Below, piece after piece: positions 4,444 through 22,923 of a stretch of 64,000 nucleotides of DNA. The notes under the pieces were generated by a model. It saw only the letters and a list, made by a program, of their open reading frames with translations. It made no database searches and was not told the DNA's origin. This DNA comes from Nitrospirota bacterium (lineage in GTDB: Bacteria; Nitrospirota; UBA9217). The stretch is from assembly GCA_963737155.1 (NCBI GenBank), contig CAVTRN010000002.1, positions 320,001-384,000 of the forward strand, in the 5' to 3' direction. A program made the translations under genes and the position numbers. Each line of letters opens with the position of its first letter. Position 1 is the stretch's first letter.

Positions 4444-4731
4444 ATGGCAAAGGCAATGACGAAATCCCAATTGATAGCAAAGGTAGCGGAGAAGGCATCA
4501 CTTACGAAGAAGGCAGCAGGTGAGATATTAGACTTCATCGCTGAAACAGCTTACAAAGAAGCTAAGAACTCGTTCACGATACCCGGACTCGGCAAGCTCG
4601 TTCTCGTTCAGCGCAAAGCTCGGATGGGAAGAAATCCTGCCACAGGCGAGACTATCAAGATAAAGGCAAAGAAGGTAGTCAAATTTCGAGTAGCCAAAGC
4701 CGCCAAGGATGCGATCCTCGGCACAAAGTAA
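4444..4731 (+). CDS. hup: HU family DNA-binding protein (intact copy)
   Basis: MTKSQLI...IPGLGKL...RKARMGRNPATGETIKIKAKKVVKF. GGAGG RBS. Confidence 0.92.
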   Translation: MAKAMTKSQLIAKVAEKASLTKKAAGEILDFIAETAYKEAKNSFTIPGLGKLVLVQRKARMGRNPATGETIKIKAKKVVKFRVAKAAKDAILGTK

Positions 4732-7257: not shown

Positions 7258-7387
7258 ACCGTTCCTGAAACCATGTATTTTATTTCCATATACTAGGACG
7301 GCAGCCGAACAGGGCTGCTGCCGGTTAACGTCAAGGCGCATGCCTCTGATGTAGCAGAACAGGTTAAACTACCGAGTTTAAGGAACC
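7258..7387 (-). mobile_element. 130-bp non-autonomous miniature derivative of the TnpB element at 18658-20538
   Basis: 7350-7258 matches 20445-20538 with 4 substitutions and 1 indel. 7387-7360 resembles the element left end. GGT at both junctions. Confidence 0.8.
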
Positions 7388-16818: not shown

Positions 16819-17019
16819 AAATGTCTCCTTTAGCCGCTTACGCTTATATATAAAATTATACTACTAATAAAAGCTTCTGGAAGCCGCTCTTCTATCTCTC
16901 TTCCTCTTTGATGTAGATTTTACGTATCATGTTCTTACTGAGAACTCCAGGAGCGTTGTCGCCCGAGTAACCTTAAAGGAACGCCTAATCCCCGCAGGAT
17001 TTGTCCTGGACGTCTTTAA

Positions 17020-17340
17020 ATATGGCGGCATCGAAGATCGCTCTGAAAGAAGCGCAATTCTTCAGATGCGTTCCGATATAATGGCTGATCTCCGGAAACC
17101 GGTAGATGATAGCTGACAGTTGAAAGAACCTGCCCCTTGCCACGTGGGTTATACTTGGGAGTGAGAGTGCTCAAATACACAGCCACAACCAAGGGGGCAG
17201 GTAAGAATAATTGTGTCACATTCATCGGTCATGATGTCCACAAAGATTCCATAAAAACCGCGGTTGCAGACGGTTTCAGCAAGCAGGACGTTCCTCACCG
17301 CGGCACAATCGGTAGCAGCCTGGATTCGCTAGCACTTCGT
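17020..17340 (+). mobile_element. IS110-family remnant: structured non-coding left end plus N-terminal transposase stub
   Basis: TFIGHDVHKDSIKTAVAD matches the IS110 G-x-D-V-H-K start. Preceded by about 190 nt of nested inverted repeats. Confidence 0.65.
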
Positions 17341-17617
17341 TCTTCATGGAGCTGATATAGTTGCATCTGTTGGAAAATAAAAACTGCAATTGGAAGTAGT
17401 TAGAACGCGCCTTAGCGCTGGTACTCCTGCCTCCACCTGCCCGTAAAAACGAGCTATAATTAGTTAAGAATTCAAGCATGATCATCCACGTTAAACTTAT
17501 CGTTTTTGCCGCTATGCTTAACGTCGGTTGTAGGTATGGTTCTAGAGGCCACAACAGGGCACAAAGTCATTGTCACGTAAAAACGAGGTTTTAAATGAAA
17601 CAGGAGGTGACCAACAT

Positions 17618-18061
17618 ATGAAAACCATCCTCAAGGCGTTCTATACAAAACCGCTTGTGATCTATCTAATATTAGCGTTGATTGAGATCTCGACTTTCGC
17701 CGGACCAGCCGAGGCCATGTTTTTCCCTGCCGCACCTCATCAGAATATGACCGAGGCGACCGCATTATCCGCGAGCCGGGCGGCAGATATGGCTAAGATC
17801 CAGACGGCATTGGAATCGAAGATTCTCCAGCAAAAGCTTATGGACTACGGGCTATCTCCTGAGGAGACTATGGCGCGGGTGAACAAACTTTCGGACGAGC
17901 AGATTCATCAGCTCGCTACACGCGCGGACTCGCTCCAAGCGGGCGGATACGGGGGTGGTGCTGGGGTTTTGGTGTTTCTCTTCCTGGTGCTCATCATCGT
18001 TGTGTTGATTGTGGCACTCACATACCCCGGGTACGGGTACGGGTACGGCCATCACAGATAG
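17618..18061 (+). CDS. PA2779-family protein
   Basis: LQQKLMDYGLSPEETMARVNKLSDEQIHQLA..LQAGG followed by a TM helix. AGGAGG RBS. Confidence 0.85.
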   Translation: MKTILKAFYTKPLVIYLILALIEISTFAGPAEAMFFPAAPHQNMTEATALSASRAADMAKIQTALESKILQQKLMDYGLSPEETMARVNKLSDEQIHQLATRADSLQAGGYGGGAGVLVFLFLVLIIVVLIVALTYPGYGYGYGHHR

Positions 18062-18424
18062 GATCACGTTTCTTAAATAAAACGGGAGGGAACCACATAC
18101 GAAGAATTTACTCAATATTTCTATGCGAAGCCGCTATTAGCCGCTGTGATTATGGCGTTTAAAATGCATTCTGAGCGTAACACAAAGTGACAAATGTCCC
18201 TAACCTGTCTCTCAACTCGAACCGAGAGAGCATGTACCGGATGCTTTCCAAAAAGGGAACTCCGAGATTAAAAGCATCTTTACCCTGCTGCACTCGCTGG
18301 GGATGAAACTGTATGTCGAGCCGAAGACTAGGTCGGCGAAGTCATCAAAGACCAAAAAGGCGGGATAAGATAAGCAAAGGGTGCGCTCGGATTCGTGAGT
18401 TAAAATATTCGGACGCGCCGATTT

Positions 18425-18657
18425 ACGTGAGGCAACGACCAGACCACAGTTTGTAGCAAAAGATAGCGAAAAAGGCATAGATTACAAAGAAAGCCGCAGA
18501 TGATATCTTAGAATGCATCATAGAAGTAGCCTAACAAAGAAGACAAAACACTTTCACGTTGCCTGGACTTGGCAAACTCGTTCTCGCTCAGCGTAAGGCA
18601 CGTAGCGGCAGGAACCACGCAACAGGAGAGACTAATCAAATTAAGGCAAAGAAGGGT
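18425..18657 (+). pseudogene. HU pseudogene, 5' part (interrupted by the TnpB element)
   Basis: Aligns to 4444-4677 (FTLPGLGKLVLAQRKARSGRNHATGET..IKAKK) with internal TAG, TAA and a frameshift. Confidence 0.85.
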
Positions 18658-20538
18658 TCTCAACTGGTCAAGCTTTAATTGTATATTAGCAACTTTTATG
18701 ATATATTATATTCAATGGAATATATAAATAAGGGCTAAGCATCAGTAAACTAACAACTTGAGGCCGTAAAAAGTGTCAACTAGGAAAAGCACCAAAAATA
18801 AGAATGGTGGTGGAAAAGACACCCTGTCATTCACTGCAAATATGCTTCTGGATGATCACCCCTACCCGGAAATAAAGACCTCTCTTTATGCCATCCTCGA
18901 CGATACGGGCATCTTGTATGGCCGTATAAAGCGGACCCTGTTTAAAGACTGCATTCGCTCCGGCAAAAAAACAACAGAATTAAAGAACGAATACCTGTTA
19001 ACGTACAAGATCACTGCACGGCAGTACAATGCAGTCCGCTATGACCTGGACGGGAATATCAAGGCGGTAACGGAAATCAACAAGCTCAGAATCCTGGATC
19101 TTGAAGAGAAAATAATATCAGTAAAAAAGTGGATAGCAAACAATGAGTCAAGAATACTCAAAATAACGGATGATGTGAGTATCCCAAGCACTGAAAAAAA
19201 GATCCAGGCAAAGGAGCTTCAGTATCGTGTTGATAATAAGAAACGAAAGCTTGCTTCTTTGGAGCAAAAGCTTTCCAAGCTCAGGGAAGATCAGAAAAAC
19301 CGGCGGGTAAGGATTTGTTTCGGGTCAAACAAGATATTCAGAAAACAATTTTCCCTGGAGGAAAACGGGTACAAAAGCCACAATGAATGGCTCCTGGACT
19401 GGAAAAGGTCTCGCAATAACACTTTCTTTTGCCTTGGCTCGAAGGACGAATCGGGCGGGAACCAAACGTGCACCCTGAAGTCCGATGGGACGATGAGATT
19501 AAGGGTCCCTGATTGTATGAAGGACAAATACGGGCATTCCATTGTAATTCCCCGCATAAAATATCCCTATGGTCAGGAACATATCGAAACGGCCCTTCAG
19601 GCCGGAATAGCGATTTCTCACAGGTTTACCAGGGGCGAGAAGGGCTGGTACCTGCACACGACGGTAGATGTTCCAAAGGCAAAAACAGTTACTTACAAGC
19701 CAAAGGAAATCGGGTCTATCGGAGTGGACGTCAATGAAAAAGAAATCGCGGTTAGCGAGACCGACCGGTACGGGAATTATGTCAGGAGCATAACATATCC
19801 ATCCTGCGTTAAGGATTTGCGTACTGAACAGACAGAAGCAATGTATAGCGATATCTGCAAGTCCATCGTGGACCGGGCAGCCAAGACGAGAAAACCTATA
19901 TCCCACGAAGAACTCGATTTTAGCAAGAAGAAAGCTTCCTTAAAAGAGCAGGGCGTTACTTACGCAAGGATGCTTTCCGGTTTCGCCTACGGAACCTTCC
20001 TCACCCTGCTGGATAGAAGGGCGGCAAAACATGGCGTTTCCGTGCTCCCGGTCAACCCTGCTTTCACCACGACCATAGGGAAATTTAATTACGTGGACCG
20101 CTATGGTATTACGTCGCATGAAGCTGCGGCGCTGGCCATCGCGAGACGCTCTCAACATTTCAGTGAAAGGCCTGATTCCGCCAGAATCGCGCCTCCCGTA
20201 CCTGCAAGGAATCGGGGGGTGCATATCTGGAGCATTTGGAGAAGGCTGAAGACGAGACGGGCGGGCGGTAGCATTAGCCTGACCGGCTCAAGGCGGTCCT
20301 TACAGGACTCCTCAGGTTGCGCTGAACCACAAACGAAATTTACATCAACGAAGACAGCGCAATCCATGCGGCCACCTCTTGCTACAATAAAGAGTGTGCA
20401 CCGCCGCATGGGATCCCAATTCAAAAATCACGGGACTTGGGTGAATCAGAGGCATGCGCCCTGACGTTAACCGGCAGCAGCACTGTTCGGCTGCCGTCCT
20501 AGTATGTGGAAATAAAATACTATGGTTCCAGGAACGGT
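18658..20538 (+). mobile_element. Non-autonomous tnpB-only element (IS200/IS605/IS607 superfamily)
   Basis: Ends are defined by interrupted HU homology, with GGT at both junctions (18655-18657 and 20536-20538). No transposase gene. Confidence 0.8.
18773..20464 (+). CDS. tnpB: TnpB-related RuvC protein (large, no CxxC zinc ribbon)
   Basis: RuvC-I IGVDVN, RuvC-II ISHEELDF, VNPAFTT and RuvC-III-like TSHEAAALAIARR. Long N-terminal coiled coil. Confidence 0.85.
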   Translation: MSTRKSTKNKNGGGKDTLSFTANMLLDDHPYPEIKTSLYAILDDTGILYGRIKRTLFKDCIRSGKKTTELKNEYLLTYKITARQYNAVRYDLDGNIKAVTEINKLRILDLEEKIISVKKWIANNESRILKITDDVSIPSTEKKIQAKELQYRVDNKKRKLASLEQKLSKLREDQKNRRVRICFGSNKIFRKQFSLEENGYKSHNEWLLDWKRSRNNTFFCLGSKDESGGNQTCTLKSDGTMRLRVPDCMKDKYGHSIVIPRIKYPYGQEHIETALQAGIAISHRFTRGEKGWYLHTTVDVPKAKTVTYKPKEIGSIGVDVNEKEIAVSETDRYGNYVRSITYPSCVKDLRTEQTEAMYSDICKSIVDRAAKTRKPISHEELDFSKKKASLKEQGVTYARMLSGFAYGTFLTLLDRRAAKHGVSVLPVNPAFTTTIGKFNYVDRYGITSHEAAALAIARRSQHFSERPDSARIAPPVPARNRGVHIWSIWRRLKTRRAGGSISLTGSRRSLQDSSGCAEPQTKFTSTKTAQSMRPPLATIKSVHRRMGSQFKNHGTWVNQRHAP

Positions 20539-20558
20539 GTCAAATTCGGAGTAGCAAA
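20445..20558 (+). ncRNA. Predicted 3' part of the TnpB omegaRNA/reRNA scaffold plus flanking guide; true 5' end probably further upstream inside tnpB
   Basis: Right-end sequence is conserved in the second copy at 7258-7350, with a GGCAGC...GCTGCC hairpin. Conservation stops exactly after CAGGAACGGT. Confidence 0.6.
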
Positions 20559-20595
20559 AGTCGTTAAACATGCAATTCTCCGCACAAAGAAGTAA
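20539..20595 (+). pseudogene. HU pseudogene, 3' part
   Basis: Encodes VKFGVAKVVKHAILRTKK* versus VKFRVAKAAKDAILGTK* in the intact copy. Confidence 0.85.
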
Positions 20596-20639
20596 TCACC
20601 CCCCTTTGTTTTGTTATTCTAAGCCCATTCCCAATCGAG

Positions 20640-20995
20640 GGGGCGACCGTACTCGCGGCTAAATGGGGAAGGGCTCTCATAGTCTATCTGAAACGCCGCG
20701 GTGTCGCGTCCTGATTTTCGGCGAGCATTGGCGTCGCGCTTCGTTCAAACACAAGCATTTCTGGTACTGCAGCGGGCTCATGGCCGTTACCGCTCGGAAA
20801 TGATGGTGGAAGGTCGATGTACGCAGGTTATCCTGCGCTGCGAAGTAATCGATGCGCAACGGCTGTGTGAAGGTACTCTTCAACCAATCGATTGCCCGCG
20901 CTATCTGTTGACTCTGACTTCCCGCCGATGATCGGCGCAAGGACCGGGATATCCTTCGGGTCAGTAAGCAAGTCGATCAACCGTTGAACACTTGA
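20640..20995 (-). pseudogene. AraC-family regulator C-terminal fragment
   Basis: QIARAIDWLK..FTQPLRI..STFHHHFRAVTAMSPLQYQK, with frameshifts and no N-terminus. Confidence 0.8.
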
Positions 20996-21774
20996 CACTT
21001 GCTCAATCCTCAATAATACTATAATAAAGATAAAGCGCTCCCTTTTCGTGGAAAAAAGGCAACTCCTACCGCGATTGTGGGAGGCCGCCGCTGGTGATTT
21101 AAATGTGGCTATGAAAATAGCACTTTAGTCGGATTGATATATTCTTGAAGCGGACGATCCTTAAGAAAAGAATTCGGCTCCCAACAGATCCGATGTCGTC
21201 CGTGTTAGTAGCCGTCCGCGGAAAAGGCGGATGCGACCGCAGATCTCACGGAGTCCACACGCTTTCTCTATGATTATGTGGCGGAGGTATCGGACTGATA
21301 TTCGAATTGGTGTTCCATTGCCTCTGGGAGCCTGTGCATGTGGCGAGGGTGAACCTTGTGTACTTCAGCCTGCACGCCGGCCGCGTTCGGCTGAAGTTGT
21401 TTGATCATCCCGCAAAAGCCATGATCGCTTCCGATGACATGTTTCTGCCTGGCTAGAAGGACAACAAGTACACCACAAATCCTAATGCGGAACAACGAGG
21501 AACGCAGTTGAACTACGCGCCAGTGCTACTGGTGTGTGGTGAAGACGATCTCCTCTTTACAGAATCTGCCAGCCGGAAGATCTTTCAGCGCTATTACAGC
21601 TCGGGGTACAGGTTCAGCATAACGTATACCCCGGTTTTTGACACGATCCGGTCGTCTACACCTTGATGATAGATCATCTGGACTGGAGCGCAGACTGGTT
21701 TGCCGGAGAACCGGCGCCAAACAATTGTCCCTCGTATTCTAAAAATGTCAATGCGTATCAGGCAGGAGTGAAAA

Positions 21775-22923
21775 TTGGTCTCTGACACAACGAAGCAGAA
21801 AGCCGAGGTGACCCTGCTGCGTCTTCCCGACGCCACGCTAACAGTGCGCCTATCAGGGGAATGGAAATTGGGAAGGCAGCTGTCGCAGGGTGAGGAGTTC
21901 CGGCGCCAGATCGAGTCCGCCGGCACGGTCAGCCGAATCACCCTTGATACTCAAGCAATGACAGCATGGGACAGCGGCCTCATTACCTTTCTCCTACATA
22001 TCATCGAGATTGGCTCTGAATTGCATATTCCTGTCGAGAAGGATAGCCTACCAGCAGGCGTGCAGCGGATCCTGGCCCTTACCTCTGCGGTCCCTGAAAG
22101 TAAAGGTGCCCGCAGGGAAGCAGCGAATATCTCCTTTCTTGACAGGGTCGGCGACTCTGCGATCGCTTTCTGGCATTCTAATCTCGAAATGCTCGCTTTC
22201 ATCGGAGAGGCATCTGTCGCCTTTATGAAGTTGTTCGTTGGAAAGGCCCAGTTCCGCCCCGCGGATCTCCTTCTCTTGATGCAGGAATGCGGTGCGCAAG
22301 CGCTTCCGATTGTCTCCCTCATCAGCATCCTTGTCGGGATCATCCTGGCTTTCATCGGCGCCATCCAGCTTAAAATTTTTGGTGCGCAGATTTACGTCGC
22401 CAGCCTCGTAGGGATCGGGATGGTCCGGGCACTTGCGGCTATTATGACCGGGATCATTATGGCCGGTCGTACAGGAGCATCATTCGCCGCGCAGCTCGGC
22501 ATGATGCAGGTAAACGAAGAGATCGACGCCTTAAAAACCCTTGGTATCTCGCCTATGGAATTGCTCGTGGTCCCGAGAATGCTCGCCCTTTTTCTGATGA
22601 TGCCTCTTTTAAGTCTTTACGCAAATCTGATGGGATTACTCGGAGGTTTGATCATTGGGGTCTCGATGCTTGATTTGGGTTTCATGGAATATTACAACAA
22701 TACACGGGAATACGTGCACCTGAACGACTTGTGGGTCGGGCTCTTCAGTGCCGCGGTCTTCGGCATCCTCGTGGCACTAGCAGGCTGTCTTCGCGGGCTG
22801 CAGTCCGGACGGAGCGCTTCAGCAGTCGGTGAAGCGACAACCTCTGCAGTGGTGACAAGCATAGTCAGCATTGTTGTGGCGATGGCGTTGATAACCTTTG
22901 TTTGTTATATGCTGAATATCTGA
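21775..22923 (+). CDS. mlaE: MlaE-family ABC permease with N-terminal STAS-like domain
   Basis: IIMAGRTGASFAAQLGMMQVNEEIDALKTLG, VGEATTSAVV. Confidence 0.9.
   Translation: MVSDTTKQKAEVTLLRLPDATLTVRLSGEWKLGRQLSQGEEFRRQIESAGTVSRITLDTQAMTAWDSGLITFLLHIIEIGSELHIPVEKDSLPAGVQRILALTSAVPESKGARREAANISFLDRVGDSAIAFWHSNLEMLAFIGEASVAFMKLFVGKAQFRPADLLLLMQECGAQALPIVSLISILVGIILAFIGAIQLKIFGAQIYVASLVGIGMVRALAAIMTGIIMAGRTGASFAAQLGMMQVNEEIDALKTLGISPMELLVVPRMLALFLMMPLLSLYANLMGLLGGLIIGVSMLDLGFMEYYNNTREYVHLNDLWVGLFSAAVFGILVALAGCLRGLQSGRSASAVGEATTSAVVTSIVSIVVAMALITFVCYMLNI

What the first reader, a model, noticed from the sequence alone, without database searches (positions are those of the whole stretch)
18425..20595. 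TnpB-only element inside a dead HU gene: its guide matches the live HU paralogue 14 kb away
Seen: HU homology stops at ...AAGAAG-GGT (18657) and resumes after CAGGAAC-GGT at 20539. Removing the element gives in-frame KKGVKF. Established: TnpB guides derive from DNA flanking the right end. The predicted guide GTCAAATTCGGAGTAG matches the intact hup gene at 4678-4693 (GTCAAATTTCGAGTAG) at 14/16, with the first 8 nt perfect. The upstream TAM-side context is AAGGTA there versus AAGGGT at the donor site. tnpB is intact although the HU flanks carry stops and a frameshift. Inference: either near-self-targeting is avoided by TAM/guide mismatch, or RNA-guided binding could regulate HU in a TldR-like way.
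Basis: partly seen in the sequence, partly recalled or inferred. Interest (0 to 1): 0.75.

Follow-up and report, generated by a model that had tools for sequence, protein, structure and literature searches.

The report
IS607-type insertion in dead HU gene
A young, multi-copy insertion sequence carrying only a TnpB-like gene and its guide-RNA scaffold sits in an old, decayed HU pseudogene, and its guide resembles the live HU genes only because the pseudogene is their paralogue.

Summary
An HU pseudogene (18430-18657 and 20539-20595) is split by a 1.88-kb element. Removing the element gives KKGVKF. The 16 nt after the right end match the live hup at 4678-4693 in 14 of 16 positions.

The match is ordinary paralogy. 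The genome has 5 intact HU paralogues, and they match the guide at 14, 13, 14, 13 and 11 of 16. A genome-wide scan found 3 sites with two mismatches, one of them unrelated to HU. None of the 33 near-matches has the GGGT motif that precedes 16 of 17 left ends in this genome and 4 of 4 in another.

The element is a tnpA-less derivative of an IS607-family transposon. Sister copies carry a serine-recombinase tnpA. Its 563-aa protein has a Cas12f/TnpB fold, no zinc finger and a conserved D-E-H triad, which fits the published RIIIr-4 clade.

The last ~105 nt encode a three-hairpin RNA. It was found 3' of the gene in 68 of 80 related loci, with strong covariation.

The window copy differs from its nearest sibling by 8 of 1880 nt. 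The HU remnant has lost its starts and carries stops and indels. The insertion is therefore most likely recent, into an already dead gene. A TldR-like role is not supported.

The parts
18430..18657 (+). 5' part of the HU (Bac_DNA_binding) pseudogene: both start ATGs lost, +1 frameshift, in-frame stops, compensated indel pairs
   Evidence: DNA and protein alignments to intact paralogues. The intact hup matches PF00216 at E 2.7e-24.
18654..18657 (+). GGGT, the target or TAM-like motif at the left junction. GGT occupies the codon that is Val (GTN) in all five live paralogues.
   Evidence: GGGT precedes 16 of 17 left ends in the own genome, with one AGGT, and 4 of 4 in another genome. Register with the paralogues is shown.
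18658..18772 (+). Left end of the element: AT-rich and non-coding, with no tnpA
   Evidence: Copy boundaries. ORF list. By eye it shares an AT-rich TTGTATA...TGATATA stretch with the left end of the tnpA-bearing family.
18773..20464 (+). tnpB-like gene, 563 aa: Cas12f/TnpB fold, no zinc finger, conserved D319-E379-H449. Residues 497-563 are disordered and poorly conserved, and overlap the RNA region.
20434..20538 (+). Omega/reRNA-like scaffold core: hairpins at 20446-20464 (contains the ORF stop codon), 20472-20496 and 20498-20524, then the terminal motif AGGAACGGT at 20530-20538
   Evidence: No Rfam match.
20539..20558 (+). Predicted guide: the first 16-20 nt of flank after the point where conservation drops
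   Evidence: Flanks differ in every copy directly after ...CGG[T/C]. By analogy with published IS607 reRNAs (PMC10711439, section 25 read).
20539..20595 (+). 3' part of the HU pseudogene, through its TAA stop
4447..4731 (+). Intact hup paralogue. The 14-of-16 near-match lies at 4678-4693 and is preceded by AAGGTA.

Best explanation
The element at 18658-20538 is a non-autonomous, tnpA-less member of an IS607-family group of insertion sequences that is active in this genome.

It encodes a TnpB-superfamily protein of the zinc-finger-less, RuvC-III-histidine type. It also encodes, at its right end, a three-hairpin RNA scaffold that would be transcribed together with the adjoining flank as guide.

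It was most likely mobilised in trans by the serine-recombinase TnpA of the sister family (inferred). It inserted at a G-GG-T site that had arisen by mutation in an already inactivated HU paralogue (inferred).

By analogy with studied TnpB elements, its ribonucleoprotein would recognise only the vacated donor site, GGGT followed by GTCAAATTCGG... (inferred, not shown).

The similarity of the guide to the live hup genes is a by-product of paralogy and has no function. The live genes lack the GGGT motif and differ at guide positions 9-10 or elsewhere.
For: **Multi-copy and young**
- Six copies at 96-100% identity.
- The window copy differs from its siblings by 8 of 1880, 17 of 1881, 36 of 1881, 35 of 1864 and 70 of 1815 nt.
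- Five of the six copies keep a full-length reading frame.

**IS607 kinship**
- Nine full-length copies of a second family (57% aa identity) end in the same ...AGGAACGGT.
- The copies examined upstream carry a conserved 188-aa gene there. It scores 197.8 bits on NF033518 'IS607 family transposase' (cut-off 110) and matches Resolvase PF00239 at E 3.6e-18.
- GGGT lies at 16 of 17 left junctions and at 4 of 4 in a Nitrospirota MAG.

**Protein**
- NCBIfam guided_TnpB at E 4.6e-12, below its cut-off.
- 353 homologues, some named 'IS605 OrfB' or 'TnpB-related'.
- AlphaFold2 mean pLDDT 80.7.
- Foldseek top hits are Cas12f at E 3e-8, followed by Cas12k, Cas12m, ISFba1 TnpB, ISDra2 TnpB and Fanzor2.
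- In a 36-sequence alignment D319 and E379 are invariant, H449 is conserved in at least 90%, and there is no CxxC pair.

**RNA**
- The model hits 68 of 80 related loci, always on the gene's strand and just 3' of it.
- 94.8% of cells are paired, against 33-45% when partners are slid.
- 18 of 19 pairs show compensatory change, and 0 of 500 shuffles reach the observed score.
- GU/UG cells number 73, against 13 AC/CA.
- Conservation ends at CGG[T/C].

**Paralogy**.

**Decay of HU**
- 32 of 163 nt positions that are invariant in the five live copies are changed (ungapped register).
- The lesions are listed.
- A broken AraC-type gene lies downstream, with its pieces in different frames. A short frameshifted remnant lies upstream.
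Against: - No RNA data: no RNA run was listed, so transcription and the 3' end of the RNA are not shown.
- Nuclease or binding activity of this His-variant clade is not shown in the passages I read. PMC10278001 reports an active RII-r5 orthologue and says nothing there about RIII-r4.
- No empty allele was found in relatives, so the order of gene death and insertion rests on a rate argument. That argument fails if the window copy is an old master copy kept intact by selection.
- The TAM is inferred from junctions. It could reflect the recombinase's preference rather than TnpB's.
- The covariation alignment A5 was fitted to the model, which inflates pairing. The independent MAFFT alignment A4 gave weaker figures: 85.4% paired, 8 of 19 pairs with compensatory change, and 4 of 500 shuffles as high.
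Confidence: 0.85

Rival explanations
1. The insertion itself inactivated a functional HU paralogue. On this reading the window copy is an old master copy kept intact by element-level selection, and the point lesions in HU accumulated afterwards.
For: - The insertion alone would suffice to kill the gene.
- The ORF is intact, and the copy is the closest relative of another copy (8 of 1880 differences). Both are compatible with a source copy.
- No empty allele is available to date the event.
Against: - All fam1 copies coalesce within about 4% divergence. The HU remnant differs at about 20% of positions invariant among live copies and carries at least five further disabling lesions.
- The GGGT site requires Gly in place of a Val that is invariant in 5 of 5 live paralogues.
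- Other remnants lie on both sides of this locus.
Confidence: 0.1
2. The TnpB-like protein loaded with this locus's guide binds the live hup gene or genes and modulates HU expression, in a TldR-like way.
For: - The first 8 guide positions match hup, and 9 match paralogue C2:1520012.
- Published TldRs bind with a TAM plus a seed of about 6 nt and tolerate distal mismatches (bioRxiv 10.1101/2023.11.30.569447, passages read).
- The third catalytic residue is His rather than Asp, and no cleavage activity for this clade appears in the passages I read.
Against: - No GGGT or GGG precedes the site in any of the five paralogues. None of the 33 near-matches in the genome has it.
- The site lies at codons 78-83 of 94, not in a promoter.
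- The element is mobile and multi-copy, with a different flank in each copy.
- D-E-H is conserved across phyla, and the same RNA and transposon ends are present. This is the pattern of a transposon function, not of an exapted single-copy regulator.
Confidence: 0.03
3. The TAM and seed mismatches between the guide and the live paralogues were selected to prevent lethal self-cleavage.
For: Both kinds of mismatch exist. Published prophage fliC_P promoters carry TAM and seed changes that preclude self-targeting by TldR.
Against: - The paralogues are 59-68% identical to the pseudogene over their whole length. Against that, 11-14 of 16 identical is as good as or better than the average.
- The live copies carry the conserved Val codon. 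It is the pseudogene that changed.
- The element is too young for the old paralogues to have adapted to it.
Confidence: 0.02

Closest known systems
IS607-family insertion sequences (serine-recombinase TnpA plus TnpB, e.g. ISXfa1 as studied in PMC10711439)
   Same: - Sister copies in the same genome carry an IS607-family TnpA.
- GG-containing junctions lie at both ends and there is no long target duplication.
- tnpB is followed by a right-end RNA whose invariant junction nucleotides belong to the scaffold.
- A G-rich left-flank motif is present. The published ISXfa1 TAM is GGG (passages read).
   Different: - The window copy has no tnpA, so it is non-autonomous, with the single-gene architecture that the literature calls IS1341-like.
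- Its TnpB is the long (563 aa), zinc-finger-less His variant, not the typical D-E-D enzyme.
TnpB major clade RIIIr-4 of Altae-Tran et al. 2023 (PMC10691335)
   Same: The paper describes RuvC-III Asp replaced by His and loss of the C4 zinc finger (passages read). Here H449 is conserved, no CxxC motifs are present, and some members are associated with a serine recombinase.
   Different: - Placement in that clade was not tested by phylogeny, because no reference sequences were available and supplements are closed.
- The paper notes an association of part of the clade with RHH/MazE-like genes. I did not look for that here.
ISDra2 / IS200-IS605 TnpB-omegaRNA (canonical OMEGA system)
   Same: Same fold: Foldseek hit 8exa at E 6.2e-4 and 8iaz at E 4.3e-5. 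The guide is taken from the right flank, and the TAM-like motif comes from the left flank.
   Different: - The partner transposase is a serine recombinase acting on double-stranded DNA, not a Y1 HUH enzyme.
- Sequence similarity to solved TnpB/Cas12f chains is marginal (best E 0.021).
- No Rfam family matches the RNA.
TldR (TnpB-like nuclease-dead repressors)
   Same: A TnpB-derived protein whose guide resembles a host gene.
   Different: As read in bioRxiv 10.1101/2023.11.30.569447, TldRs have deteriorated RuvC sites and often a truncated C-terminus. They also have new non-transposase gene associations and TAM-flanked targets in promoters. Here the protein sits in a mobile multi-copy element, its triad is conserved, and the similar site lacks the motif and lies inside a coding sequence.

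Membership tests
IS607 family insertion sequence | Encodes a serine-recombinase TnpA | tested here: not met
   No second ORF lies between 18658 and 20538. The sister family at 57% aa identity does encode one (NF033518, 197.8 bits against a cut-off of 110). The window copy is therefore a tnpA-less derivative.
IS607 family insertion sequence | Matching short (GG) motif at both junctions, with no long target duplication | tested here: met
   The left junction is G-GG-T in 16 of 17 copies and A-GG-T in one. The right end is ...AAC-GG-T/C in every full copy. The HU paralogues show that only one GGT belongs to the target.
IS607 family insertion sequence | Ends related to those of an autonomous partner that could act in trans | tested here: inconclusive
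   The last ~245 nt are about 75% identical to the tnpA-bearing family. The left ends share only an AT-rich motif, judged by eye. Mobilisation was not tested.
TnpB / OMEGA RNA-guided nuclease | Cas12f/TnpB-type fold with a RuvC domain | tested here: met
   Model pLDDT 80.7. 49 PDB chains match at E <= 0.001. Cas12f, Cas12k, Cas12m, TnpB and Fanzor2 are prominent among them, beside RuvC resolvases and a few Tex/SPT6-type chains.
TnpB / OMEGA RNA-guided nuclease | D-E-D catalytic triad | tested here: not met
   D319 and E379 are invariant. The RuvC-III position reads S-H-E-A-A-A, with H449 conserved in at least 90% of 36 sequences. This equals the published RIIIr-4 pattern.
TnpB / OMEGA RNA-guided nuclease | C4 zinc finger between RuvC-II and RuvC-III | tested here: not met
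   No CxxC pair in any of the 36 aligned sequences. The Pfam TNB domain hit covers only profile positions 1-29 of 60 and is below its cut-off.
TnpB / OMEGA RNA-guided nuclease | Structured RNA at the 3' end of the gene that abuts a variable guide | tested here: met
TnpB / OMEGA RNA-guided nuclease | RNA-guided, TAM-dependent DNA cleavage | not testable with these tools
   No RNA run was listed, and no biochemical data for this clade appear in the passages read.
TnpB clade RIIIr-4 (PMC10691335) | RuvC-III Asp to His and no zinc finger | tested here: met
   against the passages
TnpB clade RIIIr-4 (PMC10691335) | Phylogenetic placement within the clade | not tested
   No reference sequences of the clade were at hand, and the paper's supplements are closed.
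TldR | Deteriorated RuvC site (two or more triad residues lost) and/or a truncated C-terminal RuvC/ZnF region | tested here: not met
   Only one triad position differs. The replacement is conserved across phyla, and the RuvC-III helix is present.
TldR | Loss of transposon context, with a fixed association with a host or phage gene | tested here: not met
   Six copies of this family and nine or more of the sister family, with intact ends and different flanks.
TldR | Guide complementary to a TAM-flanked promoter target | tested here: not met
   The hup site lies in the coding sequence and is preceded by GGTA, not GGGT.
HU / Bac_DNA_binding (the disrupted gene) | Intact open reading frame homologous to PF00216 | tested here: not met
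   Homology is clear at 59-68% nt identity to the live copies. The start is lost, and there are a frameshift, stops and the insertion.

The most novel reading that the evidence does not exclude
The zinc-finger-less His-variant TnpB of this widespread IS607-type family may not be a double-strand DNA cutter. It might instead be an RNA-guided binder, or act on another substrate. In that case the many copies in this genome would each carry a guide that could occupy look-alike sites. The HU-derived guide, with 8-9 perfect seed positions in two live HU genes, could then dampen HU paralogues if the motif requirement is looser than the junctions suggest.
Probability: 0.03. Interest if true: 0.6.

Novelty: new member of a known kind. 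Interest (0 to 1): 0.2.

Why it matters
As posed, the finding would have been a natural case of a transposon guide RNA aimed at a host nucleoid-protein gene. The evidence says it is not. Any TnpB element that lands in a member of a gene family will have a guide resembling the other members. The test that counts is the TAM plus the seed, and that test fails here.

Two things remain useful. First, this is a well-delimited, recently active pair of autonomous and non-autonomous IS607-type elements. They encode the little-studied His-variant, zinc-finger-less TnpB. Second, their right-end RNA has strong cross-phylum covariation and no Rfam family. Both would be good material for asking whether that clade cuts DNA at all.

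Tried and rejected
**Rfam.** An E-value scan of 17000-22000 gave 0 matches.

**Expression.** The look-up of sequencing runs listed no RNA holder. This says nothing about expression.

**Orthologous or empty allele.**
- The left flank (17400-18657) and the right flank (20539-21800) were searched in 40 relatives.
- Only the DUF6627 gene region (17521-18077) is syntenic-like, at 86% in one genome.
- HU-part hits were no closer than the genome's own paralogues (76% or less).
- The order of events could therefore not be read from relatives.

**Empty sites for two other copies.** I searched the left flanks of L003 and L004 in 14 genus relatives.
- For L003 the right flank was not found beside the left flank.
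- For L004 two relatives lack about 136 nt around the insertion point.
- Neither gives a clean empty site.

**RNA folding on a plain alignment.** RNAalifold on a 25-sequence MAFFT alignment recovered only the middle hairpin, because the distant sequences were misaligned. I then set the three helices by eye on a 16-sequence alignment and tested them.

**Promoter and terminator scan of 18400-20700.** It found 3 promoter-like sites against 2.9 expected, and 0 terminators. This is uninformative.

**Sequence search of the PDB with the family profile.** The best hit was E 0.021. Only the fold comparison was informative.

**Upstream remnant (18213-18368).** From memory it looked like the C-terminus of an HTH antidote protein. 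Pfam gave 0 hits, so I do not name it.

**IS200/IS605 (Y1) reading.** I considered it and rejected it for this element. The genome does hold 22 Y1_Tnp matches. However, the sister copies of this element carry a serine recombinase, and the junctions are of the GG type.

**Supplements** of PMC10691335, PMC10711439 and PMC10278001 were not seen. They may hold the clade's member list, its RNA scaffold-guide boundaries and per-orthologue activity, all of which bear on the RIIIr-4 assignment and on 'activity not shown'.
Full report
**What is in the sequence**

The intact hup gene is at 4447-4731 and matches Bac_DNA_binding at E 2.7e-24. A second HU-like sequence starts near 18430 and runs to ...GCAAAGAAGGGT at 18657. 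It resumes with GTCAAATTCGGAGTAGC... at 20539 and ends at a TAA at 20593-20595.

Read in one register, the two halves give ...KAKKG|VKFGVAK.... The live genes read ...KAKKVVKFRVAK....

The remnant is badly damaged. Both candidate ATGs are lost. There is an uncompensated +1 insertion near the 5' end, two +1/-1 indel pairs, a 3-nt insertion before the stop, and in-frame stops.

**The inserted element**

A search of the window's own genome found six copies at 96-100% identity. Conserved sequence starts at GGGTTCTCAAC (18654) and ends at ...CCAGGAACGGT (20538). Four of the six copies have the full left end. Two lack the first 21 or 70 nt.

The window copy differs from the others by 8 of 1880, 17 of 1881, 36 of 1881, 35 of 1864 and 70 of 1815 nt.

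A second family is 57% identical in protein and about 66% in DNA. It has nine full-length copies and ends in the same ...AGGAACGGT. The copies examined upstream carry a conserved 188-aa gene there. That gene scores 197.8 bits on NCBIfam 'IS607 family transposase' (cut-off 110) and matches Resolvase at E 3.6e-18.

The window element is therefore a tnpA-less relative of an IS607-family transposon, not an IS200/IS605 element. The genome also holds 22 Y1-transposase matches.

**Junctions**

In the own genome, 16 of 17 left ends are preceded by GGGT and one by AGGT. Four of four copies in a Nitrospirota MAG show the same GGGT on the left and AGGAACGGT on the right.

In published IS607 elements, insertion is by recombination between matching GG dinucleotides. 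The invariant flanking nucleotide belongs to the RNA scaffold, and the ISXfa1 TAM is GGG (PMC10711439: passages and section 25 read). The geometry here is the same.

The live HU paralogues have AAGAAG-GTN-GTCAAA where the pseudogene has AAGAAG-GGT-[element]-GTCAAA. One GGT therefore belongs to the target, and the vacated site is AAGAAGGGT|GTCAAATTC.

**The protein**

- Pfam gives only a sub-threshold hit to the Cas12f1-like TNB domain. NCBIfam gives guided_TnpB at E 4.6e-12 over residues 361-447, below its cut-off.
- The big-database search returned 353 homologues of 8000 scored candidates. Where named, they are called 'IS605 OrfB' or 'TnpB-related'.
- In a 36-sequence alignment D319 and E379 are invariant and H449 is conserved in at least 90%. 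There is no CxxC pair, so no zinc finger. Conservation stops near residue 495.
- The AlphaFold2 model has mean pLDDT 80.7. Residues 497-563 score below 50.
- Foldseek against the PDB gives Cas12f at E 3e-8, then Cas12k, Cas12m, ISFba1 TnpB, ISDra2 TnpB and Fanzor2, with 49 chains at E <= 0.001.
- By sequence alone the best PDB hit is E 0.021.

These features equal the published description of major clade RIIIr-4: RuvC-III Asp to His and no C4 zinc finger (PMC10691335, passages read). I did not test the placement by phylogeny.

In the passages of PMC10278001 that I read, activity is reported for an RII-r5 orthologue. Nothing is said there about RIII-r4.

**The right-end RNA**

The last ~245 nt are about 75% identical between the two families, although the protein tail is not conserved there. 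The last ~100 nt are 77-80% identical to copies in another genome. A 30-nt core recurs in distant phyla.

I set three hairpins (20446-20464, 20472-20496, 20498-20524) on a 16-sequence MAFFT alignment. It gave 85.4% paired cells, against 29-48% when partners were slid. Eight of 19 pairs changed on both sides, and 4 of 500 shuffles were as high.

A covariance model built from that alignment found one hit in 68 of 80 loci that encode relatives of the protein. Every hit is on the gene's strand and just 3' of it. The other 12 loci gave none at E <= 0.01.

On that model-fitted alignment:
- 94.8% of cells pair, against 33-45% when slid.
- 18 of 19 pairs show compensatory change.
- No shuffle of 500 reaches the observed score.
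- GU/UG cells outnumber AC/CA cells 73 to 13, which points to an RNA of the sense strand.
- Conservation ends at CGG[T/C]: 66 of 68 have CGG, followed by T in 47 and C in 19. After that, columns are mixed.

Rfam has no match. The single-sequence fold contains the same three hairpins, with z = -2.56.

**Is the match to hup meaningful?**

The genome has five intact close HU paralogues and at least five fragments.
- The 16-mer matches the five at 14, 13, 14, 13 and 11 of 16. Another paralogue (C2:1520012) also reaches 14, with 9 perfect leading positions.
- Over the whole gene the pseudogene is 59-68% identical to them, so the local match is what paralogy gives in a conserved stretch.
- Genome-wide there are 3 sites with two mismatches, one of them unrelated to HU, and 30 with three. 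None of the 33 is preceded by GGGT.
- All five live genes read AAGGTA, AAGGTT or AAGGTC at that point.

The TAM-like motif exists only in the pseudogene. It arose from a Val-to-Gly codon change at a position where all five live copies have Val.

**Order of events**

No orthologous locus was found in 40 relatives, and two other copies gave no clean empty site. The argument is therefore internal.
- 32 of 163 nt positions invariant among the live copies differ in the remnant. So do 20 of 65 invariant residues. These counts use an ungapped register, so the two compensated indel pairs inflate them a little.
- There are at least five disabling lesions beside the insertion.
- The element is 99.6% identical to its nearest sibling, and all six copies lie within about 4%.
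- A broken AraC-type gene lies downstream, with AraC_N and HTH_18 pieces in different frames and both below cut-off. A short frameshifted remnant lies upstream.

The simplest reading is a recent insertion into a gene that was already dead. The alternative, an old master copy kept intact by selection, is not excluded. I give it 0.1.

**TldR-like regulation**

I read passages of bioRxiv 10.1101/2023.11.30.569447. They describe TldRs as having deteriorated RuvC sites and new non-transposase gene partners. Their targets are TAM-flanked and lie in promoters.

TldRs bind with a TAM plus a ~6-nt seed and tolerate distal mismatches. Mismatches at guide positions 9-10 alone would therefore not rule out binding.

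The idea fails on everything else:
- hup has no TAM-like motif.
- The site lies at codons 78-83 of 94.
- The element is mobile and multi-copy, with a different flank in each copy.
- The triad, RNA and ends are conserved across phyla.

**Verdict**

The resemblance to the live HU gene is incidental.

The element is a new member of a known kind: an IS607-type element of the RIIIr-4-like TnpB class.

The by-products worth keeping are the clean autonomous/non-autonomous pair and the strongly covarying right-end RNA that is absent from Rfam.

Noticed in passing
window 7258-7350 (-): A solo copy of the element's right-end RNA region (93 nt, 94.7% identical) with no tnpB beside it. About 15 further, more diverged solo right-end pieces lie elsewhere in the genome.
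   Followed up: partly
own genome G000: C2:324447, C2:563269, C2:1520243, C1:412867, C1:715351, plus fragments at C2:1510333, C2:2944879, C2:307995, C1:1496219: An unusually large family of close HU paralogues: five intact copies (77-90% aa identity to the window's hup, about 69-87% nt identity among the five) and several truncated copies. None of the other copies lies next to a copy of the element.
   Followed up: partly
window 20600-21100 (-): A broken AraC-type regulator, with AraC_N and HTH_18 pieces in different frames and both below the Pfam cut-off. The stretch 20643-20940 is 80-86% identical to one to three places in 12 of 14 genomes of the genus.
   Followed up: partly
L056-L135 (80 loci from many phyla): The three-hairpin right-end RNA model hits 68 of 80 loci encoding relatives of the protein, from Nitrospirota, Chlamydiota, Verrucomicrobiota, Bacillota and Pseudomonadota among others. 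The loop AGCACUGUUCG of the middle hairpin is nearly invariant, and no Rfam family matches.
   Followed up: yes
L004 (G000:C2:2269268 copy) versus L161 and L162: Two genus relatives lack about 136 nt around this copy's insertion point (31 nt on the left and 105 nt on the right). The element may therefore sit inside another small insertion or a variable spacer.
   Followed up: no
window 20446-20464: The stop codon of the tnpB-like ORF (20462-20464) lies inside the first hairpin of the RNA scaffold. The last ~65 codons are disordered and unconserved, so the ORF tail appears to be a read-through of the RNA gene.
   Followed up: partly
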